DNA of 64,000 bases. Source: Methanobacteriota archaeon. Lineage in GTDB: Archaea; Halobacteriota; Bog-38; Methanoflorentales; Methanoflorentaceae. The position numbers were made by a program, and so were the translations under genes. Each line of letters opens with the position of its first letter. Positions within the stretch are counted from its first letter, which is position 1. Below are positions 3,369-19,107 of this stretch, one piece after another. The stretch is taken from positions 1,793,512-1,857,511 of the forward strand of contig OY969693.1 in the NCBI GenBank assembly GCA_963701995.1, read 5' to 3'. Below the pieces are notes generated by a model. It saw only the letters and a program-made list of their open reading frames with translations, searched no databases and was not told the DNA's origin.

Positions 3369-3966
3369 GCCGAGTCGCAGCGATGATTGGACAGACATAG
3401 TCTCGGATTTCGCAGCGGTTATGCTAGCCGCCGCTACTACTATCTTAGTGATTGTTACGGGGCGGCTTGTAGCTACTGCCTCGCTAGAGCAGAACGGCTT
3501 GACGGATCGTATTTGCGGACGTTTGCCCTTGAGTTAAAAGAGCAGCTCGCCCAGACGCTTACTGCGTTTGTTATGTCGATTTTGACTCAGCCACGTAGGC
3601 GCCTAGATACGGAAAGTGCTGCGGAGCCACCGCTTCGTCAAATCATTGATGCGTTGCAGTAGGTGATGTGCACACATGACGCTGAAAAGCTGGCGATTTC
3701 TGTACTCGAAATCTACAAAGGCAGTTTAGCGAATGGCGACGAAAGTCTGTTTGACCTACCGTAGAATGTTAGTGAAGTCACATAGTCTCGTCAGCACAGT
3801 GAAAAAACCAAAAGCATTTTGGTGTATTCACGCAGCTTAAGCAACATATTGAACAAGAAGCGACCAGAAGGCGGGGTCAAAAAAGAGATCAGCCATAAGC
3901 GCGTCCTGCTTGGGTTATGGAAGAGCGAGATCGACAGCGGACGTCTTTGGAATAAATAACCAGACA

Positions 3967-5457
3967 ATGAGACAGGAAAAGATCGCCACGGAAGAATTAA
4001 CGCTTGACGAGATGGAGCAAGCGCTCTGGAAAGCCGCTGACATCCTCCGAGGCGCAGTCAGACCTGAGAGATACGGCAGCTATATGCTTCCGCTACTCTT
4101 CTTCAAACGACTATCTGATGTCTACGAGGAGGAGTATCAGGCGCTCCTTGAAAGGTTCAAGGACGAGGAAATCGCCAAGAGCAAGTTTCACCGCTTTACA
4201 ATCCCTGGGGGGTGTTTGTGGGAGGATATCCGTGTGGTGGCTCAAAACGTGGGTCAGAAACTCAATGATACGCTTGCCCAAATCGCAAAAATTAATTCAT
4301 CGCTTGAAGGTGTGATCAACCGCGCAGATTTCAACAAGCAGGACGAGCTCCCGCAAGATCGGCTCATAAGGCTTATCGAGCACTTCAGCCCTCTTCATCT
4401 TGGCAACAACGATGTCTCACCCGACATACTTGGTACGGTCTACGAGTATCTCCTCAAGAAGTTTAATGAGGTGGCTCCGCAACGGGCTGGAGAGTTTTAT
4501 ACGCCGAGAGAGGTTGTCCGGACGATGGTGGAGATCCTTGATCCTCAAGAGGGATATGAGATTTACGATCCGTGTTGCGGAAGTGGGGGGATGCTCATTG
4601 AGTCGCACTATCACCTTGCGCGAGAGGGTAAAGATCCGAAGAAACTTTTCTTATATGGCCAGGAGATCAATGGCGAAACGTGGACTATTGCGATGATGAA
4701 CGTCATGCTCCACGATCTTGAGGCAGAGCTGGATCAAGGTGATAGTTTTGCTGATCCAAGGTTCCTGGATGGATCTTCCTTGAAGCAGTTTGATCTAGTG
4801 ATCGCCAATCCAATGTGGAACCAGGATGGCTACCGATCGATTATGGAAAGCGATCAGTTTGGTCGTTTCACGTATGGCATAGCATCGAATAGTTCTGCCG
4901 ATTGGGGTTGGATACAGCATATGCTCGCCAGCTTAAAGACTACAGGAAGAATGGGCATCGTTCTTGACCAAGGAGCGCTGTTTCGAGGCGGCGCTGAAGG
5001 GAAGATAAGAAAACAGATCATTGAGAAGGACTTAGTGGAGTGCGTGGTAGCTTTGCCTGAGAAGTTGTTTTACAATACCGGAGCTCCAGGATGTTTGCTT
5101 TTCCTAAACAAAGAGAGAAAAAAGGACAGAAGATCGAAAATCCTTTTCATCTATGCTGCCAAAGGGTTCGAGAAGCGCAAGAGCATGAACCAACTGAGAG
5201 ATGAAGACGTTCAGGGGATTACAGATGCTTACAAGCATTTCAAAGACGTTGAAGGTTACTGCAAATTGGCCGACTTGGACACTGTTAGAGCTAACGACTA
5301 CAACTTGGCCGTGAATCGATATGCAGGAGTGTTAGATGATGAAGAGCTGGTGGACGTGGCGAAAATCTGGCAAGAGCTGAGGAGGCTGGAGAGTGAAAGA
5401 CAACTAATTGATGGGAGAGTGAAGAATTTCTTGGAGGAATTGGGCTATGAGAAGTAG
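3967..5457 (+). CDS. hsdM: Type I restriction-modification system, M subunit (N6-adenine DNA methyltransferase)
   Basis: Typical HsdM N-terminus (MRQEKIATEELTLDEMEQALWKAADILRG) and the motif I region DPCCGSGGML. The catalytic motif is the divergent NPMW in place of NPPF/Y. The C-terminal helical region and an 11-nt overlap with hsdS fit the family. The track ORF begins at 3910; the ATG at 3967 is preferred. Confidence 0.85.
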   Translation: MRQEKIATEELTLDEMEQALWKAADILRGAVRPERYGSYMLPLLFFKRLSDVYEEEYQALLERFKDEEIAKSKFHRFTIPGGCLWEDIRVVAQNVGQKLNDTLAQIAKINSSLEGVINRADFNKQDELPQDRLIRLIEHFSPLHLGNNDVSPDILGTVYEYLLKKFNEVAPQRAGEFYTPREVVRTMVEILDPQEGYEIYDPCCGSGGMLIESHYHLAREGKDPKKLFLYGQEINGETWTIAMMNVMLHDLEAELDQGDSFADPRFLDGSSLKQFDLVIANPMWNQDGYRSIMESDQFGRFTYGIASNSSADWGWIQHMLASLKTTGRMGIVLDQGALFRGGAEGKIRKQIIEKDLVECVVALPEKLFYNTGAPGCLLFLNKERKKDRRSKILFIYAAKGFEKRKSMNQLRDEDVQGITDAYKHFKDVEGYCKLADLDTVRANDYNLAVNRYAGVLDDEELVDVAKIWQELRRLESERQLIDGRVKNFLEELGYEK

Positions 5458-6688
5458 GTTGAAAGAAGCTTCACTCGATGATGTCTGTTTGTTGGTCACT
5501 GATGGTACTCATGATACGCCTAAGCGAGTAAAAGACGGCTTTCCGTTAATTAAGGCTAAGGAAATCGTCGGCCGAAAAATCGATTTTGAGACTTGCGATC
5601 GAATTTCGGAAAAGGAACACCTGCGGGTTATAGCAAGGTCGAAACCTGAATATGGAGATACTCTATTTGCACACATAGGCGCTTCTCTTGGGGAAGCTGC
5701 CTTCGTAAATACAAACCGTTCTTTTAGCATCAAAAACATCGCTTTGTTTAAACCAAACCCAGCAATAATAAATCAACGCTATCTTTTTTATTTGATAACA
5801 AGTCCCGCCTTCCAAGAGCTAGCCAAACGGACCAAAACAGGTTCAGCGCAACCATTTCTCAGTCTTGGAAAGCTGAGAGCTCATCGAATAACTTATCACC
5901 AGGTTATGGATGAGCAACGGAAGATCGCGGCGATTCTCTCCGAAGTTGATAATTCTATTGAAAAATCCGACGAGATTATCACAAAGACGCAGCAGCTCCG
6001 AACAGGTCTCATGCAGCAGCTGTTGACCAAGGGGATCGGACATACGAGGTTTAAGCAAACGGAACTCGGAGAGATTCCAGAAGAATGGGAGGTAGTTTAT
6101 TTCAGACAAATTATCACTTCGTACAGAAATGGTATTTATAAACCATCTAGTTTCTATGGCAGAGGCATTCCGAGTGTCAGAATGTACAACATTGACGATG
6201 GAAAAGTCAACAAAGCTAAAGCTCCTTTGCTTGATGTAACAAAACCAGAAGCGAAAAGTTATGGACTCCTTCCAGGCGATATTCTGATAAACAGAGTTAA
6301 TAGCATAGATCAGGTCGGCAAAGCAGGAATCGTGCAAGATGACCTTGGAGATGCTATCTTTGAAAGCAAAAACATCAGGGTTAGAGTGAGCCCTGATAGA
6401 TGCGATCCGCATTATCTCGCATATTTTTTGTGTACGTCTCTGTATCTTAAGCAGATCCGGTCGAGAATCAAACCGGCAGTCTCTCAGGCAACAATCAATC
6501 AAGATGATTTAGACCAAATCCAGATCTGTATGCCCCCCTTATCAGAACAGCAAGAAATCGCCTCTATTCTATCGACTCTGGATGAAAAAATTGAAACAGA
6601 AATGCAAAGGAAAGAAGAAGTCGAACATCTCAAGAAAGGCCTCGTAAGTGATCTTCTAACTGGAAAAGTGAGAGTTAAGGTGACATAA
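5447..6688 (+). CDS. hsdS: Type I restriction-modification system, S (specificity) subunit
   Basis: 413 aa with two target-recognition-domain halves separated by conserved coiled-coil spacers (…LRTGLMQQLLTKG… / …KKGLVSDLLTGKVRV). Positioned between hsdM and hsdR. Confidence 0.8.
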   Translation: MRSRLKEASLDDVCLLVTDGTHDTPKRVKDGFPLIKAKEIVGRKIDFETCDRISEKEHLRVIARSKPEYGDTLFAHIGASLGEAAFVNTNRSFSIKNIALFKPNPAIINQRYLFYLITSPAFQELAKRTKTGSAQPFLSLGKLRAHRITYHQVMDEQRKIAAILSEVDNSIEKSDEIITKTQQLRTGLMQQLLTKGIGHTRFKQTELGEIPEEWEVVYFRQIITSYRNGIYKPSSFYGRGIPSVRMYNIDDGKVNKAKAPLLDVTKPEAKSYGLLPGDILINRVNSIDQVGKAGIVQDDLGDAIFESKNIRVRVSPDRCDPHYLAYFLCTSLYLKQIRSRIKPAVSQATINQDDLDQIQICMPPLSEQQEIASILSTLDEKIETEMQRKEEVEHLKKGLVSDLLTGKVRVKVT

Positions 6689-9556
6689 GTGCCTTACACT
6701 GAAGTCGACGTCGTTGAAAAGCCAATCATCGACTGGCTTCAGCAGTTGGGTTGGACGTATGTCCCCGCCGATAAACTGAATCGAAATACTGAAGAGCCCT
6801 TTGACCTAGCCGTCCTGCGTGAAACGATCCAGCGACTCAATCCAGCGACCATTCTCACAGCTGAAGACGTCGATACGGTCATCAATCATCTCAGACAGAT
6901 CTCTAATGATATCAACGGCAACCGGCACTTTTCAGAATGGGTTAAGGGAGACCGAAGCATCGTACTGCGCCGAGGCGAGAAGGCCCAGGTTATCCGTTTA
7001 GTTAACCCTAGTATTGAGGAGAACATCTTCACTGCGACAAATCAGTTCACGTTCTTCGGGTACGAGCACGTTCGGTTCGATATCGTGCTGATGATAAACG
7101 GCATTCCACTCACACTAATAGAAGCCAAAAAGCCAACCCGCGAAACTTTAGACTATCACGAAGCCATAACACAAATATTACGATACCACAGGGATGCCCC
7201 CCAGTTTTTCAAACATTTAGCCCTTGCTTGTGCGACTGACGGGGTTAATTTCCGCTATGACTGGATAGCCCCCGACAAGTTTTTTGAGTGGAAGGATCGG
7301 GATAAACGATTCACAGACCCCCTTGAAGCATCCGTCAATGCCTTTTTCGAGCGTGGTTTCTTTTTAGACTTCATTAACAACTTCGTCGTTTTTGAAACTG
7401 AGCGCGAGCAGGTACGCAAGAAGATCGCAATGTACCAGCAAGTAAGTGCTGCTAATAAAATTGTCTCGCGCATCATTGAGGGGAAAATAAAGAGCGGTCT
7501 TATATGGCACACACAAGGATCCGGTAAGTCGCTCACTATGCTCTTTGCTGCGTGGAAGCTCAAAAAGGCCCCACAACTGTTAAATCCCACGATTTTGCTC
7601 CTCGTCGATCGGATAGACTTAGAGCGGCAACTGTCTGGGGCGTTTGCAAACGTCGACTTTCCCTATACTACAAAAGCAAAGAGCTCCCAGGATCTTATCG
7701 AGAAACTCTCAAAAGATAGTCGAGAAGTCATCATCACCACTGTACAGAAGTTTAGGAGAGAGCTAAAAGAGGCGCTAAGCGAACGTGAAAACATTATAAT
7801 CTTCGTTGACGAGGCGCATCGATCACAATACGGAAAGTTTGCGATGCGGGTGCGACAGGCTTTCCCAAACGCCTTTGTGTTTGGGTTTACCGGCACGCCC
7901 ATCGAGAAAGGAGCGGCGGGGAGGAGCACTTTTCGGACGTTCTGCCCCCAAGGCGAGACGTACCTCGACAAGTATGGTATACGCCAATCGATTGAAGATG
8001 GCGCGACAATTCGTCTCCTCTATCAATCACGGTTAGTGAATTACCACATCCCACGCGAGGAGCTCGACAGGGAGTTCCTTTCGATCACACTGGGCCTCTC
8101 TGAGAAGAGGCAGGAAGAGGTGCTCGATAAGAGCGCTACCATCCGGACGGCTTTAAAGGCACAGCATCGAATTGAAGCCATTGCACAAGACGTCGCCGAA
8201 CATTATACTACTCACATTGCTCCCAACGGATTCAAAGCACAGCTTGTCGCGGTCGACCGAGAAGCGTGCGCGATGTACAAGGAAGCGCTCGACCGACATT
8301 TGCCGGTCGAAGAATCTGTCGTGATCTACACCGCAAACCAAAACGACAGCGAACTTTTGCGACGCTATCACCTCGATAAAGACGAACAAATGACGATCAC
8401 AGGAGGCAGCTTCCAGAAGCAAGGTGAGAATCCCAAGATACTGATTGTCACCGACATGCTGCTCACCGGCTTTGATGCACCAATCGAGCAGGTGATGTAC
8501 TTAGACAAACCGATGCGCGACCATAAGCTCCTCCAAGCGATTGCACGAACAAACCGACCATATCCTGGCAAGGCAGCAGGGATCATCGTGGATTATGTCG
8601 GCATCTTCGATAATCTCGTAAAGGCTCTCAACTTTCAAGAGGAGGATATAGAAGGGGTTGCCTTCGACTATGAAGTGTTAAAAGAAGAGTTCAGTGCCAT
8701 TATTGCCTCTGCTATCAAGCCATTCAGCGAGATCGTGCGAGATGGGTCGCGGGAATCACTTTTTAAGGCGTTCTCCGTCCTTGATAATGAAAAGCGATAC
8801 AAAGAATTCAAAAAGGGCCTTCAACAGCTTAAGCGGCGATACGAGACCATTGCGCCCGACCCGTTTCTTTTGCAATATGACGATGACTATACGTGGCTCA
8901 TAGAAGTGAACGAAGCTCATAACAAGTTTCGCCACCGCGAGGATCCCGACCTCGCGGAATATCAAGAAAAAACGAAGCAGCTCATCAGGGAGAAGCTTCT
9001 AGTCAATGCGCTGGAAACGCAACTCCCCTTATTTGAAATAGACAGTGAGTATCTCAAGAAACTTGATGGACATCATTTCACCAAGCGGCAGAAAGTGATG
9101 GAAATAACCGAAGCAGTACGCCGTCACATCAGCATCAACGTCGAAACGAACCCCATCTATGAAACGCTGAGTCACCGGCTGGAACGAATTTTGAAGATCG
9201 AGGATATACCAAAACTGCTTGAGGCGATGGAACTTCTTGTGGGAAACATCGTTGAGACAGAACGACGTGCCAAGGAACTCGGCCTGTCAAAAGAGGAGTA
9301 CGCCCTTTTAAACGTGGCCAAGAAGTACGTGCATAACGAAAGCGATGCCGTGCTCATCGCCTTCACTAAGCGCGTTACTGACACTATAAAACCGCGGCTT
9401 TTCCCTGGTTGGTGGCGGAAGGTGAAGGTTGCAACAGAGATAGAAAAGACGTTGTTTGATGCGTGCTTCGAGGAGTTTAGAGGACAGCTGAGCATGAAAG
9501 ACCTCACATCGTTCTGTGAAGAGCTGATGGACTTTGTCGTGAAGTACAATCAGTAG
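6689..9556 (+). CDS. hsdR: Type I restriction enzyme R subunit (HsdR; PD-(D/E)xK nuclease plus SF2 helicase)
   Basis: N-terminal D...LIEAKKP nuclease motif, Walker A TQGSGKSLTM, DEAH box VDEAHRSQ and 955 aa length. GTG start immediately follows the hsdS stop. Confidence 0.85.
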   Translation: MPYTEVDVVEKPIIDWLQQLGWTYVPADKLNRNTEEPFDLAVLRETIQRLNPATILTAEDVDTVINHLRQISNDINGNRHFSEWVKGDRSIVLRRGEKAQVIRLVNPSIEENIFTATNQFTFFGYEHVRFDIVLMINGIPLTLIEAKKPTRETLDYHEAITQILRYHRDAPQFFKHLALACATDGVNFRYDWIAPDKFFEWKDRDKRFTDPLEASVNAFFERGFFLDFINNFVVFETEREQVRKKIAMYQQVSAANKIVSRIIEGKIKSGLIWHTQGSGKSLTMLFAAWKLKKAPQLLNPTILLLVDRIDLERQLSGAFANVDFPYTTKAKSSQDLIEKLSKDSREVIITTVQKFRRELKEALSERENIIIFVDEAHRSQYGKFAMRVRQAFPNAFVFGFTGTPIEKGAAGRSTFRTFCPQGETYLDKYGIRQSIEDGATIRLLYQSRLVNYHIPREELDREFLSITLGLSEKRQEEVLDKSATIRTALKAQHRIEAIAQDVAEHYTTHIAPNGFKAQLVAVDREACAMYKEALDRHLPVEESVVIYTANQNDSELLRRYHLDKDEQMTITGGSFQKQGENPKILIVTDMLLTGFDAPIEQVMYLDKPMRDHKLLQAIARTNRPYPGKAAGIIVDYVGIFDNLVKALNFQEEDIEGVAFDYEVLKEEFSAIIASAIKPFSEIVRDGSRESLFKAFSVLDNEKRYKEFKKGLQQLKRRYETIAPDPFLLQYDDDYTWLIEVNEAHNKFRHREDPDLAEYQEKTKQLIREKLLVNALETQLPLFEIDSEYLKKLDGHHFTKRQKVMEITEAVRRHISINVETNPIYETLSHRLERILKIEDIPKLLEAMELLVGNIVETERRAKELGLSKEEYALLNVAKKYVHNESDAVLIAFTKRVTDTIKPRLFPGWWRKVKVATEIEKTLFDACFEEFRGQLSMKDLTSFCEELMDFVVKYNQ

Positions 9557-9566
9557 GCGCAACAGC

Positions 9567-10286
9567 ATGGGCTCTATTCAAATCGATGGTCGTCAAATCA
9601 ACTATCGCGTAAAAGCGGGAAAGAGTGCGAAATACACTTATCTTAAGTTCACGCCTGATCTTGAGCTCGATGTCGTACTTCCTCACGAATCTGATATAAA
9701 CGTTGAAGCGCTCCTTGAGAAAAAACGGGCGTGGATTGCACGTAAATACGCGGAGCTTTCAAACAGGAAATGCGTTTTTGATGGCACGTCAGTTATGTAC
9801 AAAGGACGTTACTACGACCTCCATGTGGTGCCCCCAGAAAATGGCACGAACGTTGAGGTTCAGAAGGATAAGATCATCATCTCCACGAAAGACGTGGGGG
9901 ATCCATTATCGTCGCTGAAAGAATGGATGACAGCAGCAACTACGGAGCTGTTAACCCGCGAACTGCCGCGTTACGCACACCGTTTCAAAATCACCCTTGG
10001 AGCTGTAGTAGTGAGAAATATTAAGCGCTGGGGGTACTGCTCGAAAACGGGCGCCCTTGTTTTCACGTGGCAGCTGATCGCGTTGCCTGATCGTCTAGCG
10101 GAATACGTGATGCTCCATGAGTTAGCTCATCTATCTGAGTTCAATCATTCGAGGAGGTTTTGGACAAAGTTAGCGTCTATGTGTCCGGACTTTAAGGAGC
10201 GGCAACAAGAGCTTAATCAAGTTTGCACCAGCGCATCAGCGGATTTAGACACATCAGACCTGATAAGCCCTGATAGCGTAATGTAA
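9567..10286 (+). CDS. DUF45/YgjP-like (WLM/SprT-type) zinc metallopeptidase, HExxH
   Basis: HELAHL zincin motif near the C-terminus and 239 aa length. This family is recurrently encoded directly downstream of hsdR. Confidence 0.65.
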   Translation: MGSIQIDGRQINYRVKAGKSAKYTYLKFTPDLELDVVLPHESDINVEALLEKKRAWIARKYAELSNRKCVFDGTSVMYKGRYYDLHVVPPENGTNVEVQKDKIIISTKDVGDPLSSLKEWMTAATTELLTRELPRYAHRFKITLGAVVVRNIKRWGYCSKTGALVFTWQLIALPDRLAEYVMLHELAHLSEFNHSRRFWTKLASMCPDFKERQQELNQVCTSASADLDTSDLISPDSVM

Positions 10287-10792: not shown

Positions 10793-13363
10793 TCACATCA
10801 TTGAGACAGTCGTGGATGAGTCGTGGGTCTCCGACAAGTCTTCAGGTTGATCGGCGGCCTCTGAAGAGCTTCCGTTGTTAGCAACTTCGGAGGCGCTTCG
10901 CTCCGCTTCGGATCGTGTTTCCGAAATAGAATGAAGCGCGTTTTGGGCATCTGTTTCAGGTTGGGAAGGAGCTGTGGGTCTGTTCCATTTGTCGGTCGCG
11001 GCTGTTTCGGAACTTCGGTCGGGTGCGATGGAAGGAGATCCAATGGTGGGTATCTCGTATTCCTCCGAAGTACCGAAAGTAGTGTTAGTGTTATGTACAA
11101 TATGCCCGTTAACCCCCCCTAACCTGGAATCTAACCCCTCGCCGCCCTTCTCGCTATTTCGGAAGTCATCTCCGAAACAATCCGAAACAGTCCGAAGTTG
11201 CTGGTCTTCTTCCCAATATACAATCGATTCATAACTTTTGACCAGCGTCCACTCGGCTGGCAATGCGTAATGATTGCGCCCCCACCGATCACCTGTTTCG
11301 GGGTCAACATCGCTCTTTGAATAGAACTTCAATTCGGGTATCTTTTCAAGCATGCCCCTGTTATCGGACTTATACTGGCCGTGAATGAGTTCATAGATGT
11401 AACTGTTGCTCAGCCTGGTCTCATCCATGATCCTCCATAGATCACACGGTGAGTTGTCTCGTATAACCGATGCAACTAGTCTCTCTTTCTCATTCAACTT
11501 CGTTACCTGCTGAACGGCGACGGTCTTAAACAAGCCGAGTGCGTTATCGAAATCCTGCTTAATGGCTATGAGTGCGCCATCTTTATCAGTGCACCGCGCA
11601 GAGTAATTCAGGACGCAATACGCCTTGATGAAGTCGAGGAATATGGGAAAGTTGCGCCTATTTCGCACGTTCGTGAATTTTATGTTGTTAATAAATGGAA
11701 TTGTGACCGCATGACTAGTTTGATTGAGGTGCAAGAAAGCCCCCCTCAACAGTTCGACTTCATCATCCGCATAGAATTCTGAAAGGCCTGATTCAGCAAG
11801 CTTCCGCTGGTGCTGCTCGACCCTCTTGTCCTGGTCAGGCGACTCATCGACGTTCATCTCGACCTGCCGATTAAGGAGCTGAATCGTCGATTTGGTACTC
11901 ACACTGGTGAGCCAAAAAGCAACTCGCGGTGGCAATGACAGCGTTAGAGGGTTGCGCTTCCCGTCTAGCGTGAGATGTTCAGTGGGTGAATCCCAGTTGG
12001 TCATTGCTGCACGGACGGTCTGTTCGACATCGGGAGCCAAATTCACGTCATCACTAAATATCACCATTTTAGGCCGCAACTTGTCATCGTAGAACAGGGC
12101 TTTTGAGCTAAACGACGCAGCCAAGTACATTGTTGTGGGCATCAGATGGAGCACGGTTTTCGTGCTGTGCGTCTTTCCCATTCCGCTCTCCCCGCTCAAC
12201 TTTGGCTGCAAGCCGTTCGTGTTTATAACGGACAGGCTCGCCACTGATAGCATCAGCAATTCAGCCACTGGTTCATCGCCAACGTGGAATTTTTGCACGT
12301 TTCGCCTGAACAGTTCGATGAGCTTGTTGCCCTGGAAGAGGCTTTGAACCTCCTCGCTGCACTCTTCATTCAGCAAAGGCTCAACGGCGGGTCGCGGTGT
12401 TCCCGCAGGATACGTGCAACAGCTCTTCGCAATCATCGTCAGCTCTGAATCGTCGAGAGGAGTCTCGCAATCGTACTCGTTGATTCCCCTAAGAACTAGA
12501 AAGAGGCCGTCGGCTTGAAGTGCGTGAACTTCACGATAGTAAGAACCAACCCTAAAGAGTGTGACGTTTCGGCTTCCTACTGGTATTGGCTTCGTGTAAT
12601 CAAGAGCACCCTTGGTAACTTGGTTATCTAGGGTATGCGTGTCTACCAAGCACGCGGCATCATCGGCGCCTATCGCCTTCTGTACTCCGTGTAATGATAC
12701 GATATACTGCAACGCAGCTTCAGATAGCTTCGTTAACTTAATTGCGTCGCTTGGTGTGTCAGCATCACAAAACTCATAGCGTGCTCCGTCGGGATGAATC
12801 GATCCAGGGCCAACGACATAGCCTCCGGCGCCTTTCACGTCAATATGATCGGCGAGACGGTTGTAACTGTTTCGGATATCAAAACCGCAAGGATCGCAGT
12901 ATAGTTGATATCCTCCTCCAGTTTTCACCAACGTTCCGACTTCAAATGTGCCTAGTTTATCCTGCACCTCTTTGATCTTCGCAGCTATTTCGTCAGGGTT
13001 TATTCCGTCTAAGTCAATAACGAAGAAATGTTTTCCGGTGACAATCCCGTAATTAGATTCAGGATATCTCCGAGCCCATTCGAGGATTACGTCCTCGTCA
13101 GTCGAAGCTTTAGCTTGCCATCCTGTAAAGAGGGGCTCTTTGCTCTTTTGCTTGAGAGGAAAAACCTTGAATCCTTGACTTGCCATAAAGAAAGCGCAGG
13201 ACCAAGTGTGGCTTGCTACAAAATGTCTACGGCCCCTCGCCGGCGACGCATGAGCTTTGTAACCATTGTCGCCAAGTTCAACTGAGTGGATCGCTTCTTC
13301 GGTTTTCTTTAAAAAAGTGTTGCTTTCCTCTAGGGTTTCTTCTCTTTTTCTCGTATGCTGCAA
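10793..13363 (-). CDS. replication protein: bifunctional primase-polymerase (PrimPol) N-domain fused to D5/P4-type SF3-like helicase; disordered acidic/Ser-rich C-terminal tail
   Basis: Prim-Pol motifs FVIDLDG...DVKGAGGYVVGPGSIHPDGARYEF and the Walker A GESGMGKTHSTKT. The tail (…SEAERSASEVANNGSSSEAADQPEDLSE…) is low-complexity. The architecture matches plasmid/provirus Rep proteins such as pRN1 ORF904-like ones. The true start may be internal (MASQGFKVFPL…). Confidence 0.75.
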   Translation of the reverse strand: MQHTRKREETLEESNTFLKKTEEAIHSVELGDNGYKAHASPARGRRHFVASHTWSCAFFMASQGFKVFPLKQKSKEPLFTGWQAKASTDEDVILEWARRYPESNYGIVTGKHFFVIDLDGINPDEIAAKIKEVQDKLGTFEVGTLVKTGGGYQLYCDPCGFDIRNSYNRLADHIDVKGAGGYVVGPGSIHPDGARYEFCDADTPSDAIKLTKLSEAALQYIVSLHGVQKAIGADDAACLVDTHTLDNQVTKGALDYTKPIPVGSRNVTLFRVGSYYREVHALQADGLFLVLRGINEYDCETPLDDSELTMIAKSCCTYPAGTPRPAVEPLLNEECSEEVQSLFQGNKLIELFRRNVQKFHVGDEPVAELLMLSVASLSVINTNGLQPKLSGESGMGKTHSTKTVLHLMPTTMYLAASFSSKALFYDDKLRPKMVIFSDDVNLAPDVEQTVRAAMTNWDSPTEHLTLDGKRNPLTLSLPPRVAFWLTSVSTKSTIQLLNRQVEMNVDESPDQDKRVEQHQRKLAESGLSEFYADDEVELLRGAFLHLNQTSHAVTIPFINNIKFTNVRNRRNFPIFLDFIKAYCVLNYSARCTDKDGALIAIKQDFDNALGLFKTVAVQQVTKLNEKERLVASVIRDNSPCDLWRIMDETRLSNSYIYELIHGQYKSDNRGMLEKIPELKFYSKSDVDPETGDRWGRNHYALPAEWTLVKSYESIVYWEEDQQLRTVSDCFGDDFRNSEKGGEGLDSRLGGVNGHIVHNTNTTFGTSEEYEIPTIGSPSIAPDRSSETAATDKWNRPTAPSQPETDAQNALHSISETRSEAERSASEVANNGSSSEAADQPEDLSETHDSSTTVSMM

Positions 13364-13567: not shown

Positions 13568-14320
13568 ATGAATTCGGCAATGCTGATTTTAGGCTGCATT
13601 ACGCCTGAGGAAATATCAGTGGCCGCCGATCTGGCCATACTTCTAGTAGCTTTTATTAGCGTGGTTACGTTCTTGTTATGGAGATTACTCAACATACGAA
13701 GCAGCAAGGGGGTTCTCGCACTAGCGATTTCCCCTCCTAGCGTTTCGTCTCCGTTAATCACATTCGGACACAGAGATCCCGCTGCCGCCACACCGGACGT
13801 TGCCAACATTGAGCAACCGATTTTGCCCGTCTTAGTCCTTATACAATATTCTTTGCTAAACGCCGACATTTTTCCAGAAATACTCGGAGATGCTTCTCTG
13901 CAAATCAAACACCTTGCAACTGGCAATAAATATCAGCTGAGTCCCCGAATGACTTCCAAAGCTGATATGCCGACTGAGAAAACCAATCGAGAAACAAGAC
14001 TAGTGGCAACCGCACCTTTTAGAGAACTTTTGCTTAAGCCTCGAACAGATGAGCAAATTTGGTTATTCTTTGTCCCCATTGAGGAACGGGATTTGTCACT
14101 TGGTAACGTAGCCTCTGGCGATTATGAGGCAATATTGAAGCTTAAGAAACGAAAATTTTGGTGGGTTGAAGAGGCTGTGGTCTTGAAGTTCACGGTCGAA
14201 GAAGCATTTGCTGGATTTATGCAGAGCGTCACTATCATACTAAAGATTCCCGAAGCAGGTCTTTCAGTCATTTGCAACAAAAAATGGTGGCAATTTTGGA
14301 AAAGAAAGCTACCGCTTTAG
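13568..14320 (+). CDS. hypothetical protein with N-terminal transmembrane helix
   Basis: 250-aa ORF with a hydrophobic N-terminus (AADLAILLVAFISVVTFLLWRLL). It is the only long ORF in this segment; there is no homology-based support. Confidence 0.3.
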   Translation: MNSAMLILGCITPEEISVAADLAILLVAFISVVTFLLWRLLNIRSSKGVLALAISPPSVSSPLITFGHRDPAAATPDVANIEQPILPVLVLIQYSLLNADIFPEILGDASLQIKHLATGNKYQLSPRMTSKADMPTEKTNRETRLVATAPFRELLLKPRTDEQIWLFFVPIEERDLSLGNVASGDYEAILKLKKRKFWWVEEAVVLKFTVEEAFAGFMQSVTIILKIPEAGLSVICNKKWWQFWKRKLPL

Positions 14321-14478
14321 CAAATGAAGTAAATGTTTCTTTGTTAGTATCTAGCACGTTTTAGCGACGAAGATATTGCGATACTGCGAGATCGAAGCTC
14401 ATGCGGCATCGCTGAAAAGTTCAGCCCGACTTAATCCATTTGCTAAATAGAAGACTTACCCTAGATCAGCCTTTTTGA

Positions 14479-14570
14479 GCAAATAAACGAGCTAAAAGCA
14501 AATAAGCAACGATTGAACGTAAATTTGATTCGCAAAAACAAGCAAGTAACGACAGTTAGCAAAAAATTGA
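14479..14570. repeat. iteron-like A-rich repeats GCAAA(T/A)AA (about 5 copies, 10-34 bp spacing)
   Basis: Copies at ~14479, 14498, 14532, 14542 (partial) and 14559, within a 600-bp ORF-free region of the putative element. Confidence 0.4.
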
Positions 14571-14924
14571 CGAATTTTTGGACATCAACCGTCAAAAAAT
14601 CCGTTTTTTCGTTGCAGCTTCGTTTTGATGATTAGGCAGGCCGCACTGGGACGTGACGGGGATAGGCATATATTTCGTAGAAAACAGTTTTTCATTATGT
14701 ATGTGGGGGGGCGCGTAGCAATTTTTGGGCAGGCCCCTGAACCGCGAGTAATGAAGTTATGCGTCTAATGCTTGTGTCTTGAACTTGGAGCTGTGTCCCA
14801 CCCCAAGTGGTTTTGAGGGTCGTTGTTCGCTTCACGTAAAACTCGCGAATCTTTAGAGCGCGAAGATCCTTGTCCGACAGCAGCTTACAAAGCGGCGTGC
14901 GCTCGACAGCTTAATGTCTCAAAA

Positions 14925-15386
14925 TTAGCCATTACACTTCTCATCTATAGCTGTCTGATCAGCTTCCAATTCCCTCAATTGCCCTTCCAAACGTTCGATT
15001 TCTGAAGTAACATTGGCGAGAGATCTAGAGATAGTAACCATTTTCGCCTTCCTTTGCTTAACGAGTGAATTGACAAAGACGCGGCGTGATTCTCCGGCTA
15101 ATTGCTTTATCTCTTCTTCAACCTCAGTGCATTCTCGGTCAAATTCCGCTAAACGTTGTTTGGCTTGTCGGATAGCATCTGCTGCGTCGTCCAAAGCGCG
15201 ATTAATTATGTCTGCAGCTTCTTCTTCTGAAGTATCTGCGTTCACTTGCAGATTTATGAAGCTTGCTGCTTCATTCACCATTCTCGTGAGTTCTTTTTCT
15301 ACGTTGTAAGATTTGCGCTGCGTTAGATCCGTATAACGTCCAAGCCAGTAGGTCAAACGCTCGTTTTCGTGTGTTGGATCCTTCAT
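14925..15386 (-). CDS. coiled-coil protein (hypothetical)
   Basis: 153 aa, strongly heptad-like and charged (…EEEIKQLAGESRR…IERLEGQLRELEADQTAIDEK). It lies upstream of, and co-oriented with, the AbiJ-like gene. Confidence 0.45.
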   Translation of the reverse strand: MKDPTHENERLTYWLGRYTDLTQRKSYNVEKELTRMVNEAASFINLQVNADTSEEEAADIINRALDDAADAIRQAKQRLAEFDRECTEVEEEIKQLAGESRRVFVNSLVKQRKAKMVTISRSLANVTSEIERLEGQLRELEADQTAIDEKCNG

Positions 15387-15541
15387 TTTCGTTCCTTTGT
15401 TCTGCGAGTTGACCTTTGAGAAGGGCAGTGATTAGTCCAATAGATGCAAGATGTAGCCACAGAGAATTATCAAATGAAAATACGAGTCATCAACGTTTGA
15501 TCTCGGGAGCGATATCTTGGTAGCCTTCCTATGGATTTAAT

Positions 15542-16438
15542 TCATTTTTCAGCGCCATTGGCTAGCACGCCGGCCTTGACTGCTTTTGGGAACAGGTAAT
15601 TCACAAAAGCGGAGCAAGAGACCAACATAAACTGTGCATCTTCTAGGTTTAAGTTTGGTTCATCGAGCAATGCATGGCGTATGCCATTTGCGTCACTGGT
15701 GTACCCATACAAGCTGCTGAAGGCCTGACGCAGGGCGCCATGTAGTTTTATTTTGCCAGCTCGTTCTATTTTGTTCAATGCGTCCCCTAGAGTTGCTTTT
15801 TCTCCTGCAATTTTTACACAGATTGACTCGACAGCACTAATTGACTCTTTGATTGAATTTCGATAGACGAGATCGCCGAGTCTCTCTCGGTCGGACAATA
15901 GTTTTAAGGCGTCTCGCAAATGTATGTGAGCCCCTCTAAGCGCCGGAAGGGTCGTAGTAGTGTTCAAAGCCTCTTCGACTGCGCCACGTTCTTCAGTAGA
16001 TGCAATAGGTGCAATGACTCCTGAGACGAAACGGTAGCCTGAACGCTCTTCTTCTAGGAGCTTGTTGGACTCTTCCATGAAACGAGCACTAATGTCTGCG
16101 TTTGGGTACTCGTTTGCGATGAATTCTATGAAATCGTAGACCTGGAACCATTTGAATTTAGAGAATAAACCCCTCAGCTGGAGACAATACACAGGCCAAA
16201 CGTCGACGATGAGGCTCCACATAGGTTGCTTGAAGAATTCATCCTGCAATCTTCGTGAAAACGATTTCGTAGAGTCTTTATTGTCTTCCTGCGCGGCATC
16301 TTGCCAAAAATACTTGTCTAGAGCGTTCCAAATGCGATTTCGCAAATCATCATCAATATCGTCGATCTGAACAAACGTTTTTACCGGTGTTTGCCCTTGC
16401 CTTTGGGAGAATGGAAGTTTGGGGTCTTCAGGGCTCAT
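15542..16438 (-). CDS. AbiJ-like abortive-infection protein (AbiJ N-terminal domain plus C-terminal HEPN-like domain)
   Basis: The N-terminus PFSQRQGQTPVKTFVQIDDIDDDLRNRIWNALDKYFW resembles, as recalled from memory, the AbiJ_NTD4 family. The C-terminal region carries an Rx4H motif (RGAHIH) as in HEPN RNases. Confidence 0.5.
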   Translation of the reverse strand: MSPEDPKLPFSQRQGQTPVKTFVQIDDIDDDLRNRIWNALDKYFWQDAAQEDNKDSTKSFSRRLQDEFFKQPMWSLIVDVWPVYCLQLRGLFSKFKWFQVYDFIEFIANEYPNADISARFMEESNKLLEEERSGYRFVSGVIAPIASTEERGAVEEALNTTTTLPALRGAHIHLRDALKLLSDRERLGDLVYRNSIKESISAVESICVKIAGEKATLGDALNKIERAGKIKLHGALRQAFSSLYGYTSDANGIRHALLDEPNLNLEDAQFMLVSCSAFVNYLFPKAVKAGVLANGAEK

Positions 16439-16439
16439 T

Positions 16440-16643
16440 TTACTCTCGCATACAAATAACTGAACTAGACTGTTTGTTTTGATGTCGGATAAACTTTTTC
16501 AGGAGGACAGCACAGATGAGAACGTGCCCCCAGGCACTCAGATAAATATCATAAGCGTACTCAGGCAGCGGATGCTTGTAAAACAGCCAATCAATGCCAG
16601 AAACTCCGTGAGTCATAATGTAGTTCTTGTTTGACTGATCCAC
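16440..16643 (-). pseudogene. integrase C-terminal fragment (remnant of a second tyrosine recombinase)
   Basis: The fragment NYIMTHGVSGIDWLFYKHPLPEYAYDIYLSAWG aligns with the C-terminus of the adjacent intact integrase (YVLTHGVSGVDWKHYKHPLPEHVYDIYMKYWG). A shared 17-nt identical DNA stretch (ggcagcggatgcttgta) confirms a diverged duplicate. Confidence 0.6.
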
Positions 16644-16725: not shown

Positions 16726-18018
16726 TTAGATTGTCAAGTCGACATTTCCCCAGTATTTCATGTAGATGTCATACACATGCTCGGGCAGCGGATGCTTGTA
16801 GTGCTTCCAATCAACTCCGCTAACTCCGTGTGTTAAAACATACGCTCGGTTTGACTGATCCCATTGGATAACGTCGCCATGCTGCTCCGCAAATTTTCGC
16901 AAATCTCCAAGCACAAAATGCCCTTCAAAGTGCGACATCGGGATTTTCTGACGCTTCATCCACATTTGGAAGCTATGATATCCAAACGCGCTTTCCTCGT
17001 TCTTACAGTCGCAAAGCACTGCTTGCATAGCTTCGACTACCTGCGAATGAAGGGGCACGTAGTGTTGCATCCGAATCTTATCTTGCGACGGGTCGACGGT
17101 GAGTACAGGTTTTTCGGACTGCAACGCTTCCCGAAACTGTCCGACAGTCAGCTTCGCAATCGTCGATACACTTCGCTGCCCTGTGAGCGCACCGAAAATA
17201 ACGAATGCGTTATACTGAGCTGCCCTTTCGGCGCCAATGTCTCCACGTTCTTCGGCGTGCTTGATGTAACGGAGAACGTTTTCGATATCATCCTTGGTGA
17301 CAATTCGCTCAGTTACGTTTTTGCGTTCTTTGACCGTTTTCGGACGCTCTAAGTAGGGAGAGAAACTCTGGTATCGTGGTTTAGAATGTGTCGTGGCGAG
17401 AAACTTTAGGAACGACGTTGCGAAGCCGAGTACTTTAGAGTGTGAATCGGCTGACTCGTACTTGTTAAGCACGTTTTGTCTGAATTCCTTCAGGCTATGC
17501 GGCGAAACCTCTCCCTTTGTAGACTTCCATAACTCTATTGAAGCTCGCTCTATCCAATCCTGCGATTTTTTAGCGAGCCGTTCTTTCCTGTGAGCTGTAA
17601 AGCCATTAAGGTCAGATTTTGAAAAACTGAGTTGTAGCTCGTCAGATGTGGCCTGTTCGCGAATTTCTTGCGTTTCAGCGGGGTTGTAAATAGGTTTTTC
17701 GTAAGTCTCTAGAATATCTTTAACGGCTTCTATTGTTTCAACGTCAACCGTCCTTATTTTTTGAGCTTTGTGCCACGCGCTTCGCACACTCTCGTCCAAA
17801 TGAGCATAGTCCTCGTCCTCGTCTGCTATCAGCTCTTCTGTGCTAAATTCGAGGCCTTCGTCGAGCGACCCGTCAGGGAGTCTGGTGTGGACGATAATTC
17901 CGCCACCGTAGTCGACGATGACAGTTTCTGGCGGTTCTTTTTCGTTTTCGTCATTTTCAGCAGAAGTTGGCAACTCATGAGAAGTTGGCAACTTTTCTTC
18001 GTCATCATCCGCCACCAT
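16726..18018 (-). CDS. site-specific integrase (tyrosine recombinase family)
   Basis: C-terminal box II-like H..LR.F...HG…AYVLTHG and an upstream …TGQRS… arginine box. It sits immediately adjacent to the tRNA-Val 3' end. The track ORF extends to 18099 by reading through the tRNA, so the start was trimmed to MVADDDEE. Confidence 0.7.
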   Translation of the reverse strand: MVADDDEEKLPTSHELPTSAENDENEKEPPETVIVDYGGGIIVHTRLPDGSLDEGLEFSTEELIADEDEDYAHLDESVRSAWHKAQKIRTVDVETIEAVKDILETYEKPIYNPAETQEIREQATSDELQLSFSKSDLNGFTAHRKERLAKKSQDWIERASIELWKSTKGEVSPHSLKEFRQNVLNKYESADSHSKVLGFATSFLKFLATTHSKPRYQSFSPYLERPKTVKERKNVTERIVTKDDIENVLRYIKHAEERGDIGAERAAQYNAFVIFGALTGQRSVSTIAKLTVGQFREALQSEKPVLTVDPSQDKIRMQHYVPLHSQVVEAMQAVLCDCKNEESAFGYHSFQMWMKRQKIPMSHFEGHFVLGDLRKFAEQHGDVIQWDQSNRAYVLTHGVSGVDWKHYKHPLPEHVYDIYMKYWGNVDLTI

Positions 18019-18046
18019 TTTAGCCTCTAAATCAGAAAAAGAACGA

Positions 18047-18120
18047 TGGGCTCGGCCGGATTTGAACCGGCGACCTCCGCCGTGTGAAGGCGACGTCATA
18101 ACCGCCTAGACCACGAGCCC
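18047..18120 (-). tRNA. tRNA-Val (anticodon CAC)
   Basis: Cloverleaf folded by hand. Acceptor GGGCTCG/CGAGCCC, T-arm GCCGG-TTCAAAT-CCGGC, anticodon stem TCGCC/GGCGG with loop TTCACAC, discriminator A. CCA is not encoded. Confidence 0.8.
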
Positions 18121-18228: not shown

Positions 18229-19107
18229 ATGCACAACAACTATAAATCGACTGAGTTTTCTGACATTGATCTCAGCCGCTGGAAGGACTACGACGACGTC
18301 ATTCTCGACTCTTTATGGCTGCTCGGCCCGCGAGGCAAGACCGGGCCGCACGTCGGGGACTACTGGGGCAACTTCATCCCCCAGATTCCGTATCAGGTCT
18401 TGACCCGTTTCACGAAGCGCGGTGAGGCCGTCGTCGACCTCTTTAGCGGCATGGGCACGACGCTTATCGAGTGCAAACGGCTCGGTAGAGCCGGACTCGG
18501 CGTTGAGATCGATCCGGGCGTGGCAGAACGCTCGCTGGAACGAATAAACAGCGCAGAAAACCTGTACAACGTTCCGGTCGCCGTGCTTGTGGGTGACTCA
18601 ACGACAGCGCTTGCGGCGAAGCGTGTGCGCGCTACGCTTAGGGAATGGAACGTCAATGCGGCTGACTGCGTCATCTTGCATCCGCCCTATCACGATATAA
18701 TCCGCTTCAGTGAGCTCGAGGGCGATCTGTCGCGCGTGCCAACGGAAGCAGCTTTCTTGGATAAGATCGGTCTGGTCGCGCGACACGCGTATGACCTGCT
18801 CAAACCGGCCGGGTTCATGGCGCTCGTGATCGGTGACAAGTACGTGGACTCGCGGCTCGTCCCGCTCGGATTTATGTGCATGCAGCGCTGCGTGGATGCA
18901 GGCTTTGTGCTCAAAGCCATCAACGTCAAGGAGATCATCAACAACGAACGCGGCAAGGGAAAGAACGGTAACCTATGGAAGTACCGCGCGCTCGTGGGCG
19001 GCTTTTATCTGTTCAAGCACGAGTACGTGATGATCTTTCGTAAGCCCGCGGCGAGCAGGCGCGCACCTAAAGCCGAAAGCCTAAAGCCTAAAGATGCCGC
19101 GCCATAA
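18229..19107 (+). CDS. SAM-dependent methyltransferase (N6-A/N4-C DNA MTase-like, motif I then HPPY)
   Basis: VVDLFSGMGTTLIECKRLGR (motif I) followed by VILHPPYHD (motif IV, a DPPY variant). No partner nuclease is adjacent. Confidence 0.5.
   Translation: MHNNYKSTEFSDIDLSRWKDYDDVILDSLWLLGPRGKTGPHVGDYWGNFIPQIPYQVLTRFTKRGEAVVDLFSGMGTTLIECKRLGRAGLGVEIDPGVAERSLERINSAENLYNVPVAVLVGDSTTALAAKRVRATLREWNVNAADCVILHPPYHDIIRFSELEGDLSRVPTEAAFLDKIGLVARHAYDLLKPAGFMALVIGDKYVDSRLVPLGFMCMQRCVDAGFVLKAINVKEIINNERGKGKNGNLWKYRALVGGFYLFKHEYVMIFRKPAASRRAPKAESLKPKDAAP

What the first reader, a model, noticed from the sequence alone, without database searches (positions are those of the whole stretch)
13568..16438. Candidate abortive-infection module: AbiJ-like HEPN protein with upstream coiled-coil protein and a TM protein
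The 298-aa ORF 15542-16438 has an N-terminus resembling the AbiJ N-terminal domain family (…FSQRQG…DDLRNRIWN…) and a C-terminal Rx4H HEPN-like motif (RGAHIH). A co-oriented 153-aa all-coiled-coil protein and a divergent 250-aa protein with an N-terminal TM helix flank it, with none of the three assignable to housekeeping functions. Inside a mobile element and next to a Type I RM system, this trio is a plausible uncharacterised toxin/sensor defense module. The coiled-coil protein could act as antitoxin or sensor for the HEPN RNase.
Basis: inference. Interest (0 to 1): 0.7.

Follow-up and report, generated by a model that had tools for sequence, protein, structure and literature searches.

The report
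AbiJ-NTD4 defence-candidate gene with archaeal companion
The 298-aa gene is an ordinary member of a very large, already catalogued but untested family of candidate anti-virus proteins (AbiJ-NTD4 / PADLOC PDC-S32) that normally works alone. Only the small helical protein next to it is a partner, and only in a few related archaea, so the proposed three-gene module does not hold.

Summary
All three ORFs exist. The 298-aa ORF (15542-16438, minus strand) is a clear member of the AbiJ-NTD4 family (Pfam PF18863, E 1.8e-33). It also matches PADLOC candidate PDC-S32 over its full length (E 5e-97).

This family is huge: at least 4,800 clusters at 50% identity and at least 581 species genomes across bacteria and archaea, plus plasmids and a few phages. 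NCBI's annotation pipeline already names it, and its function is untested.

The 153-aa helical protein lies downstream, not upstream. It is found only in six sequence variants from related archaeal elements, always directly after the AbiJ-like gene. It is absent from a 69%-identical sister clade and from 79 other species genomes.

The 250-aa membrane protein is an orphan. Its only homologue sits in a locus without AbiJ.

Verdict: a known kind of single-gene defence candidate carried by an archaeal integrated element beside a Type I RM system. The companion gene is specific to this lineage. Modest interest.

The parts
15542..16438 (-). 298-aa AbiJ-NTD4 / HEPN-like protein (PADLOC PDC-S32 family), the core and probably self-sufficient component
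   Evidence: It matches Pfam PF18863 at E 1.8e-33. It matches PADLOC PDLC04997 at E 5.3e-97 over residues 8-286 of the protein and 7-281 of the 285-position profile. More than 7,000 homologues of about 280-290 aa share about 50% identity over the full length.
15959..16414 (-). AbiJ_NTD4 domain (residues 9-160), the predicted sensor/gating domain. The model shows helices 30-48, 51-69, 81-94, 97-110 and 114-130 plus a beta-hairpin at 136-143.
15545..15958 (-). C-terminal all-helical domain (residues 161-298), HEPN-like (AbiJ family according to the literature), with a non-canonical motif
15827..15865 (-). Motif YRNSIKESISAVE (residues 192-204), nearly invariant, with E204 invariant
   Evidence: Alignment A4 of 114 representatives
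15674..15709 (-). Motif YGYTSDANGIRH (residues 244-255). Y244, G252, R254 and H255 are invariant. It sits before the last helix, where the HEPN RNxxxxxH motif of Abi_C proteins would lie.
   Evidence: In relative P0079 the Abi_C profile positions 34-82 align to this segment and the last helix. The validated SadR motif is RNEYGDAH.
15920..15937 (-). Only H173 is conserved, so this is not an Rx4H motif.
   Evidence: Column counts
15387..15541 (-). Intergenic spacer of 155 bp between the AbiJ-like and coiled-coil genes. Its sequence is conserved (67% mean column identity across five lineages) with no conserved RNA fold.
   Evidence: consensus energy -1.7 kcal/mol; no Rfam hit
14925..15386 (-). 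153-aa acidic helical or coiled-coil protein, a clade-specific companion of the AbiJ-like gene with unknown role
   Evidence: Six sequence variants (58-97% identity) all lie directly downstream of the AbiJ-like gene. It has no specific family match.
13568..14320 (+). 250-aa orphan protein with one N-terminal TM helix. It is NOT part of the system and is listed because the finding included it.
   Evidence: It has no family hit. Its only homologue covers 42% of it and lies in L097, which has no AbiJ gene.
16440..16643 (-). Remnant of an integrase C-terminus abutting the AbiJ-like start codon. The same remnant precedes the AbiJ gene in related loci.
   Evidence: A direct repeat at 16528-16641 and 16748-16861 is 70% identical. 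tblastn finds the remnant in L008-L014.
16726..18099 (-). Tyrosine integrase of 457 aa whose first 53 nt overlap the 3' part of tRNA-Val (context)
   Evidence: PHROG 216 integrase at E 3.7e-8; weak Pfam Phage_integrase hit; tRNA at 18047-18120
3910..10286 (+). Type I RM operon HsdM, HsdS and HsdR plus a YgjP-like metallopeptidase (context: defence cargo of the same island)
10793..13363 (-). Prim-Pol replication protein of the element (context)
   Evidence: PF09250 at E 1.4e-31; 56% identical to the Prim-Pol next to the AbiJ gene in L002

Best explanation
**What it is (shown).** The 298-aa ORF is a routine member of the AbiJ-NTD4 + AbiJ-type HEPN-like family, listed in PADLOC as the untested single-gene candidate PDC-S32. 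It is cargo of an archaeal integrated element that sits at tRNA-Val and also carries a Type I RM system.

**How it most likely works (inferred from the family literature and the anatomy).** It acts on its own. The N-terminal NTD4 domain keeps the C-terminal helical effector inactive and responds to an invader component. The C-terminal HEPN-like domain then damages RNA, or otherwise arrests the cell. It would use the invariant R254-H255 pair, together with the YRNS...E204 helix, in place of a canonical Rx4-6H motif.

**The neighbours.** The 153-aa coiled-coil protein is an accessory or hitch-hiking companion specific to this lineage, and the family as a whole does not need it. The 250-aa TM protein is unrelated cargo.
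For: - **Family membership:**., 55 found 4,802 representative clusters, 1,846 of them at E<=1e-30, and all of the 150 best listed (the only ones returned) match over essentially the whole domain. Plasmid records annotated by NCBI's pipeline call it "AbiJ-NTD4 domain-containing protein".
- **Stand-alone behaviour:** the genes on either side differ in size, strand and spacing in 80 species genomes. No neighbour family recurs in more than 3 of 80 loci. 149 sampled neighbours are mostly unrelated housekeeping genes.
- **Literature:** Anantharaman 2013 defines AbiJ-NTD4 as fused to AbiJ HEPN and proposes NTDs as sensors or auto-inhibitors. The PDC systems are 145 untested candidates found embedded in BREX, DISARM and Type I RM systems. 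An Abi_C protein, SadR, is a validated RNase defence.
- **Defence context:** Type I RM lies in the same island. Related elements carry MmeI-type RM, a Schlafen-like gene and an ApeA-HEPN gene.
Against: - No member of the NTD4 subfamily has been tested in any paper I could find.
- The window protein does not reach Pfam Abi_C even at E<=10.
- No conserved Rx4-6H exists. The positions that an ungapped register from H255 would assign to SadR's R-N are S248-D249.
- Foldseek against the PDB gives nothing significant. PDB sequence searches give no HEPN hit.
- The C-terminal-only model is of low confidence (pLDDT 67) and hits generic helical bundles as well as it hits HEPN proteins.
- In most of the 80 genomes the gene lies among housekeeping genes, not in an obvious defence island.
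- The tight linkage with the coiled-coil gene in this clade is left unexplained.
Confidence: 0.6

Rival explanations
1. Two-gene module. In this archaeal clade the AbiJ-like protein and the 153-aa acidic coiled-coil protein work together. The coiled-coil protein could be an antitoxin or inhibitor, an adaptor for a trigger, or an oligomerisation scaffold for the HEPN-like effector.
For: - The coiled-coil gene occurs only directly downstream of the AbiJ-like gene, in six sequence variants at 58-97% identity. The paired AbiJ proteins are 72-96% identical.
- The spacing is kept at 155-210 bp (for the largest) and the spacer sequence is conserved.
- The flanking replication genes differ between these loci: an 856-aa Prim-Pol, a 176-aa Prim-Pol plus AAA_16, a 930-aa D5_N protein, and a 720-aa NrS1-1-like polymerase.
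- The protein is acidic (net charge -8), as many protein antitoxins are.
Against: - All six variants come from one narrow clade of related elements. They also share an integrase remnant upstream, so inheritance by descent explains the linkage equally well.
- The sister clade has a 69%-identical AbiJ and a 56%-identical Prim-Pol but no coiled-coil gene.
- 79 of 80 other species genomes lack it.
- The 155-bp gap leaves room for a separate promoter.
- No interaction or structure test was possible.
Confidence: 0.22
2. One reading: AbiJ-like HEPN protein, coiled-coil protein and TM protein.
For: Only physical proximity within one island.
Against: - The TM protein is convergent, 604 bp from the pair.
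- It is absent from every other AbiJ + coiled-coil locus.
- Its one partial homologue is in a locus without AbiJ.
Confidence: 0.02
3. The protein is not a catalytic HEPN RNase. Its C-terminal bundle would be a degenerate or non-nuclease HEPN-like domain, working by binding, as a scaffold or as a regulator. The protein might then serve the mobile element (maintenance, exclusion of rivals or regulation) instead of classical abortive infection.
For: - There is no conserved Rx4-6H. The arginine sits at -1 to the histidine.
- Nothing in the family reaches the Abi_C threshold.
- Some HEPN families are known to lack the motif, for example AbiV, c2405 and the nucleotide-binding HEPNs in Table 1 of PMC3710099.
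- Genomic neighbours are mostly housekeeping genes.
Against: - Polar residues are conserved to an extreme degree: R193, N194, K197, E198, E204, H173, H233, R254 and H255 in at least 109 of 114 representatives at about 40-50% overall identity. That pattern is typical of an active site.
- The family occurs on plasmids, in phages and embedded in RM and BREX systems.
- Its distribution is patchy, as expected for a horizontally transferred gene.
Confidence: 0.15

Closest known systems
AbiJ-NTD4 domain-containing proteins (Pfam PF18863; Anantharaman et al. 2013, PMC3710099) = PADLOC phage-defence candidate PDC-S32
   Same: The match covers the full length: the same two-domain architecture, the same length (about 280-300 aa) and all family-invariant residues present. 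Like other members it is found on a mobile element near a Type I RM system.
   Different: - It belongs to a divergent archaeal sub-clade: at least 69% identity within the clade, then a drop to 55% or less with all others.
- It has a 3-residue insertion, and LG replaces the near-invariant P-D just before YRN.
- It has a clade-specific 153-aa companion gene.
Lactococcal AbiJ and Abi_C (PF14355) proteins, e.g. SadR of S. aureus (PMC13590631)
   Same: Literature assigns the C-terminal domain of NTD4 proteins to the AbiJ HEPN family. Some relatives give weak Abi_C hits that align the conserved ...GIRH... segment and the last helix to the motif-bearing end of the profile. The logic of an N-terminal accessory domain plus a C-terminal effector in one protein is shared.
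   Different: Abi_C proteins carry R-N-x5-H (RNEYGDAH in SadR, shown to be needed for RNase activity and defence). This family instead has S-D-A-x-G-I-R-H with the arginine adjacent to the histidine. The window protein does not match the Abi_C or PADLOC AbiJ models. Only 3 of 2,815 Abi_C proteins in that study carried NTD4.
HEPN-MNT and other HEPN toxin-antitoxin pairs (e.g. SO_3166/SO_3165, PDB 5yep; AbiV with its RNA antitoxin)
   Different: The partner here has no nucleotidyltransferase domain and is not an RNA repeat. It lies downstream after a 155-bp gap, and nearly all of the family lacks it.
Death-fold domains (PYD, DED, CARD, DD) and the bacterial Death-like domains of Kaur et al. 2021 (PMC8195603)
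   Different: There is no sequence-level signal to any death-fold Pfam family. The assignment to the N-terminal domain is by elimination only. That paper does not mention Abi proteins.

Membership tests
AbiJ_NTD4 (Pfam PF18863) | Match to the family HMM above its gathering score, over the whole domain | tested here: met
   116.6 bits against a cutoff of 34; residues 9-160 align to profile positions 2-152 of 152. All 114 sampled relatives also match.
PADLOC PDC-S32 (single-gene phage defence candidate) | Full-length match to the PDC-S32 HMMs | tested here: met
   PDLC04997 at E 5.3e-97 (7-281 of 285) and PDLC04996 at E 6.6e-85
PADLOC PDC-S32 (single-gene phage defence candidate) | Functions as a single gene, with no conserved partner | tested here: met
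   No recurrent neighbour in 80 species-level loci. The exception is the narrow archaeal clade with the 153-aa gene.
PADLOC PDC-S32 (single-gene phage defence candidate) | Protects against phage | not testable with these tools
   The PDC systems are described as 145 untested candidates. No paper in the library mentions PDC-S32.
AbiJ / Abi_C HEPN family (Pfam PF14355) | Match to the Abi_C HMM at or above its gathering score (24 bits) | tested here: not met
   No hit at E<=10 for the window's C-terminal half. Ten of 114 relatives hit only below threshold, best E 0.0013; P0079 scores 14.2 bits.
AbiJ / Abi_C HEPN family (Pfam PF14355) | R-[polar]-x3-5-H RNase motif before the last helix (RNEYGDAH in SadR) | tested here: not met
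   The segment reads T-S-D-A-x-G-I-R254-H255. No arginine is conserved 4-7 residues upstream of H255 (motif definition).
HEPN superfamily | All-alpha HEPN fold | tested here: inconclusive
   [not shown]
HEPN superfamily | Conserved Rx4-6H catalytic motif | tested here: not met
Invariant R254-H255 and near-invariant R193-N194 may substitute; that is inference.
HEPN superfamily | RNase activity | not testable with these tools
   Needs biochemistry
HEPN-MNT type toxin-antitoxin pair | Adjacent minimal nucleotidyltransferase (MNT) antitoxin | tested here: not met
   The 153-aa neighbour has only generic coiled-coil hits.
Death-fold superfamily (for the NTD4 domain) | Six-helix death-fold bundle recognisable by structure comparison | tested here: inconclusive
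   [not shown]

The most novel reading that the evidence does not exclude
AbiJ-NTD4 may be a prokaryotic death-fold (PYD-like) assembly domain. It would switch on a non-canonical HEPN effector that uses an adjacent R-H pair plus an RN...E helix instead of Rx4-6H. In this archaeal clade the system would also have acquired a dedicated acidic coiled-coil regulator, making a two-component variant of an otherwise single-protein immune gene. If so, one of the most widespread untested defence candidates would link directly to inflammasome-style death-fold signalling.
Probability: 0.12. Interest if true: 0.65.

Novelty: new member of a known kind. Interest (0 to 1): 0.3.

Why it matters
This locus adds little on its own. 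It is one more copy of a family that is already in Pfam, PADLOC and NCBI's annotation pipeline.

What the analysis shows about the family as a whole is more useful:
- The family is very large and spans bacteria and archaea.
- It has never been tested.
- Its conserved C-terminal signature is not the canonical HEPN Rx4-6H, so the usual "HEPN RNase" label is an extrapolation.
- Its N-terminal domain may resemble the death fold.
- A small archaeal clade offers a natural comparison of the gene with and without a companion. That could show how the effector is controlled.

Tried and rejected
- **RNA element in the spacer.** I looked for an RNA antitoxin or regulatory RNA in the conserved 155-bp AbiJ/coiled-coil spacer. 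The consensus fold is only -1.7 kcal/mol with no convincing covariation, and the window's only Rfam hit is tRNA-Val. Rejected.
- **Island borders.** No copy of the tRNA-Val 3' part of 12 nt or more occurs elsewhere in the window, so the left border of the island stays undefined.
- **Solved structures by sequence.** Profiles of the full-length protein and of the C-terminal domain gave no meaningful PDB match.
- **Foldseek against the PDB** with the full-length model gave nothing at E<=0.001.
- **Search of 1.84 billion representatives** with the C-terminal profile. I hoped it would reach canonical Abi_C proteins so the motif could be aligned. All 150 proteins listed align over essentially the whole C-terminal profile at the position expected for the NTD4-type architecture. 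The residue-level alignment to RNxxxxxH therefore rests on one weak Pfam hit.
- **Conserved neighbours.** Clustering 629 neighbouring ORFs and scanning 149 of them against Pfam gave nothing recurrent.
- **Naming the other two proteins.** Specific family assignments for the coiled-coil and TM proteins in Pfam, PADLOC, NCBIfam and PHROGs gave only generic coiled-coil noise or nothing.
- **Literature.** No paper mentions PDC-S32.
Full report
**1. What is in the sequence**

The three ORFs exist as stated: 15542-16438 on the minus strand (298 aa), 14925-15386 on the minus strand (153 aa), and 13568-14320 on the plus strand (250 aa). On the minus strand the 153-aa gene lies downstream of the 298-aa gene, after a 155-bp spacer. 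The 250-aa gene converges on that pair, with 604 bp between the two stop codons, and diverges from the Prim-Pol gene at 10793-13363.

- The stretch from about 2.4 to 18.1 kb is low in GC (0.43-0.50, against 0.53-0.63 on either side).
- It ends at tRNA-Val (18047-18120, minus strand). The first 53 nt of a 457-aa integrase gene overlap that tRNA.
- It carries a Prim-Pol replication protein and a complete Type I RM operon, HsdM/HsdS/HsdR plus a YgjP-like peptidase.
- I found no second copy of the tRNA end, so the left border is undefined.

**2. The 298-aa protein**

It matches Pfam AbiJ_NTD4 over the whole domain (E 1.8e-33, residues 9-160). It matches the PADLOC model PDC-S32 over its full length (E 5.3e-97).

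The family is very large. More than 7,000 cluster representatives scored E<=0.001, and the 120 best listed are typically 270-305 aa, about 50% identical and cover about 95% of the query. A profile of the C-terminal half finds 4,802 clusters at 50% identity, and each of the 150 best listed (the only ones returned) matches essentially the whole domain at its C-terminal end. At least 581 species genomes from many bacterial and archaeal phyla encode it. It is also on 32 plasmid records, where NCBI's pipeline already names it "AbiJ-NTD4 domain-containing protein", and in 4 phage records.

The domain was defined in 2013 as an N-terminal module fused to AbiJ-type HEPN domains and proposed to act as a sensor or auto-inhibitor (PMC3710099). 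The PDC systems are 145 untested candidates found embedded in BREX, DISARM and Type I RM loci (bioRxiv 10.1101/2024.01.29.577857). I found no paper that tests this subfamily.

**3. The HEPN claim**

In 114 representatives position 168 is K, S, A or T, while H173 is kept in 110. The conserved C-terminal signature has three parts:
- P-D-Y-R-N-S-I-K-E-S-I-S-A-V-E (187-204, with E204 invariant);
- H233;
- Y-G-Y-T-S-D-x-x-G-I-R-H (244-255, with Y244, G252, R254 and H255 invariant).

No arginine is conserved 4-6 residues before any conserved histidine.

In the experimentally validated Abi_C protein SadR the motif is RNEYGDAH. One relative, P0079, gives a weak Abi_C hit that aligns the end of that profile to ...YGYTSDAEGIRH... 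plus the last helix. If H255 corresponds to the catalytic histidine, an ungapped register puts S-D where SadR has R-N, and the arginine sits directly next to the histidine.

The window protein itself has no Abi_C hit at E<=10. Ten of 114 relatives have sub-threshold Abi_C hits and three have DUF4145 hits.

- Foldseek finds nothing significant.
- The isolated C-terminal model is weak (pLDDT 67) and matches generic four-helix bundles as well as it matches HEPN toxins.
- PDB sequence searches are empty.

My reading is that the domain is HEPN-like and related to AbiJ, as the literature says, but with a non-canonical active-site signature. RNase activity is an inference, not a finding.

**4. The neighbours**

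*The 153-aa protein.* It is acidic and helical, with heptad-like periodicity. It matches only generic coiled-coil models. The database search found just two related clusters, and tblastn and context look-ups added three more variants. In all, six sequence variants exist (58-97% identity). Every one sits directly downstream of an AbiJ-NTD4 gene that is 72-96% identical to the window's. The spacer is 155-210 bp and its sequence is conserved. The replication genes beyond the pair differ among these loci, which argues for some cohesion of the pair.

All of these loci nevertheless belong to one narrow family of archaeal elements, and they share an integrase-C-terminus remnant just upstream of the AbiJ gene. 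The sister clade, with a 69%-identical AbiJ and a 56%-identical Prim-Pol, has no such gene. So do 79 of 80 other species genomes. The spacer shows no conserved RNA fold.

*The 250-aa protein.* It has one TM helix and no family match. Its single partial homologue lies in a locus that lacks AbiJ.

*The rest of the family.* Flanking genes vary freely in strand, size and distance. No neighbour family recurs in more than 3 of 80 loci. 149 sampled neighbours are a mix of housekeeping genes.

**5. Mechanism**

*Best-supported (confidence 0.6).* This is a self-contained single-protein defence candidate. NTD4 senses or gates, and the HEPN-like domain is the effector, using R254-H255 together with the RN...E helix. 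It is carried as cargo beside a Type I RM system. Related elements carry other defence cargo at the equivalent place: MmeI-type RM and a Schlafen-like gene and an ApeA-HEPN gene.
- Shown: family membership, stand-alone distribution, and the mobile, RM-adjacent context.
- Inferred: RNase activity, sensing by NTD4, and a defence phenotype.

*Rivals.*
- A real two-gene unit with the coiled-coil protein as regulator (0.22).
- A non-catalytic HEPN-like protein with some other role (0.15).

**6. Comparison and novelty**

The gene is a member of AbiJ_NTD4 / PDC-S32, and both defining HMM tests are met. It should not be filed as a canonical Abi_C/AbiJ HEPN, because the HMM threshold and the RNx5H motif were both tested and not met. 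It is not a HEPN-MNT pair.

It is a new member of a known, untested kind. The archaeal companion gene and the motif deviation are the only unusual features.

**7. Verdict**

Interest is 0.3.

Noticed in passing
[not shown]
   Followed up: partly
window 16440-16643 (-) and 16748-16861: A 67-aa ORF abutting the AbiJ-like start codon is a decayed copy of the integrase C-terminus (70% DNA repeat). The same remnant precedes the AbiJ gene in L008-L014. So "integrase remnant + AbiJ + coiled-coil" travels as a block, perhaps left by tandem integrations or by recombination between elements.
   Followed up: partly
window 18047-18120 and 16726-18099: The integrase ORF begins inside tRNA-Val, so its first 53 nt are the tRNA's 3' part. 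No second copy of that sequence (12 nt or more) occurs in the window, so the far end of the island is not marked by a recognisable att repeat. There is a sharp GC dip (0.30) at 2401-2600.
   Followed up: partly
L017 6870-7080 (spacer between the AbiJ and coiled-coil genes): A roughly 27-nt motif (ATCYRTRGSAAGRCTnnCAAGAYRTCG) is single-copy and conserved in the other four lineages but tandemly duplicated in L017. It could be a protein-binding or promoter element.
   Followed up: no
L008 7862-8756: In this relative the AbiJ-like gene is called as two overlapping ORFs of 64 and 251 aa. That suggests a frameshift or an assembly error. The downstream coiled-coil gene is intact.
   Followed up: no
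window residues 186-191 of the 298-aa ORF (about 15866-15883): The window's protein, and L016's, replaces the near-invariant P-D before YRN (P in 111 and D in 108 of 114) with LG and carries a 3-residue insertion (DLV).
   Followed up: no
L002-L005 and L008 (related elements): Next to the AbiJ-like gene, related archaeal elements carry other defence-type cargo. These are an MmeI-family RM enzyme and a Schlafen/AlbA_2-like protein and an ApeA_NTD1 + HEPN_Apea protein. One of 114 family representatives gives a strong hit to the SLFN_AlbA_2 family (E 7.9e-10) in addition to AbiJ_NTD4, which may be a fusion.
   Followed up: no
window 14501-14924: About 420 bp downstream of the coiled-coil gene has no ORF of 60 aa or more lying wholly within it (one 60-aa ORF at 14823-15005 overlaps its end) but is 84% identical at DNA level to the same position in L009-L015. 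No Rfam family matches.
   Followed up: partly
window 18229-19107 (+): A solitary N6_N4 DNA methyltransferase (PF01555, E 2.9e-16) lies just outside the tRNA-Val border, in higher-GC DNA, with no nuclease gene next to it.
   Followed up: no
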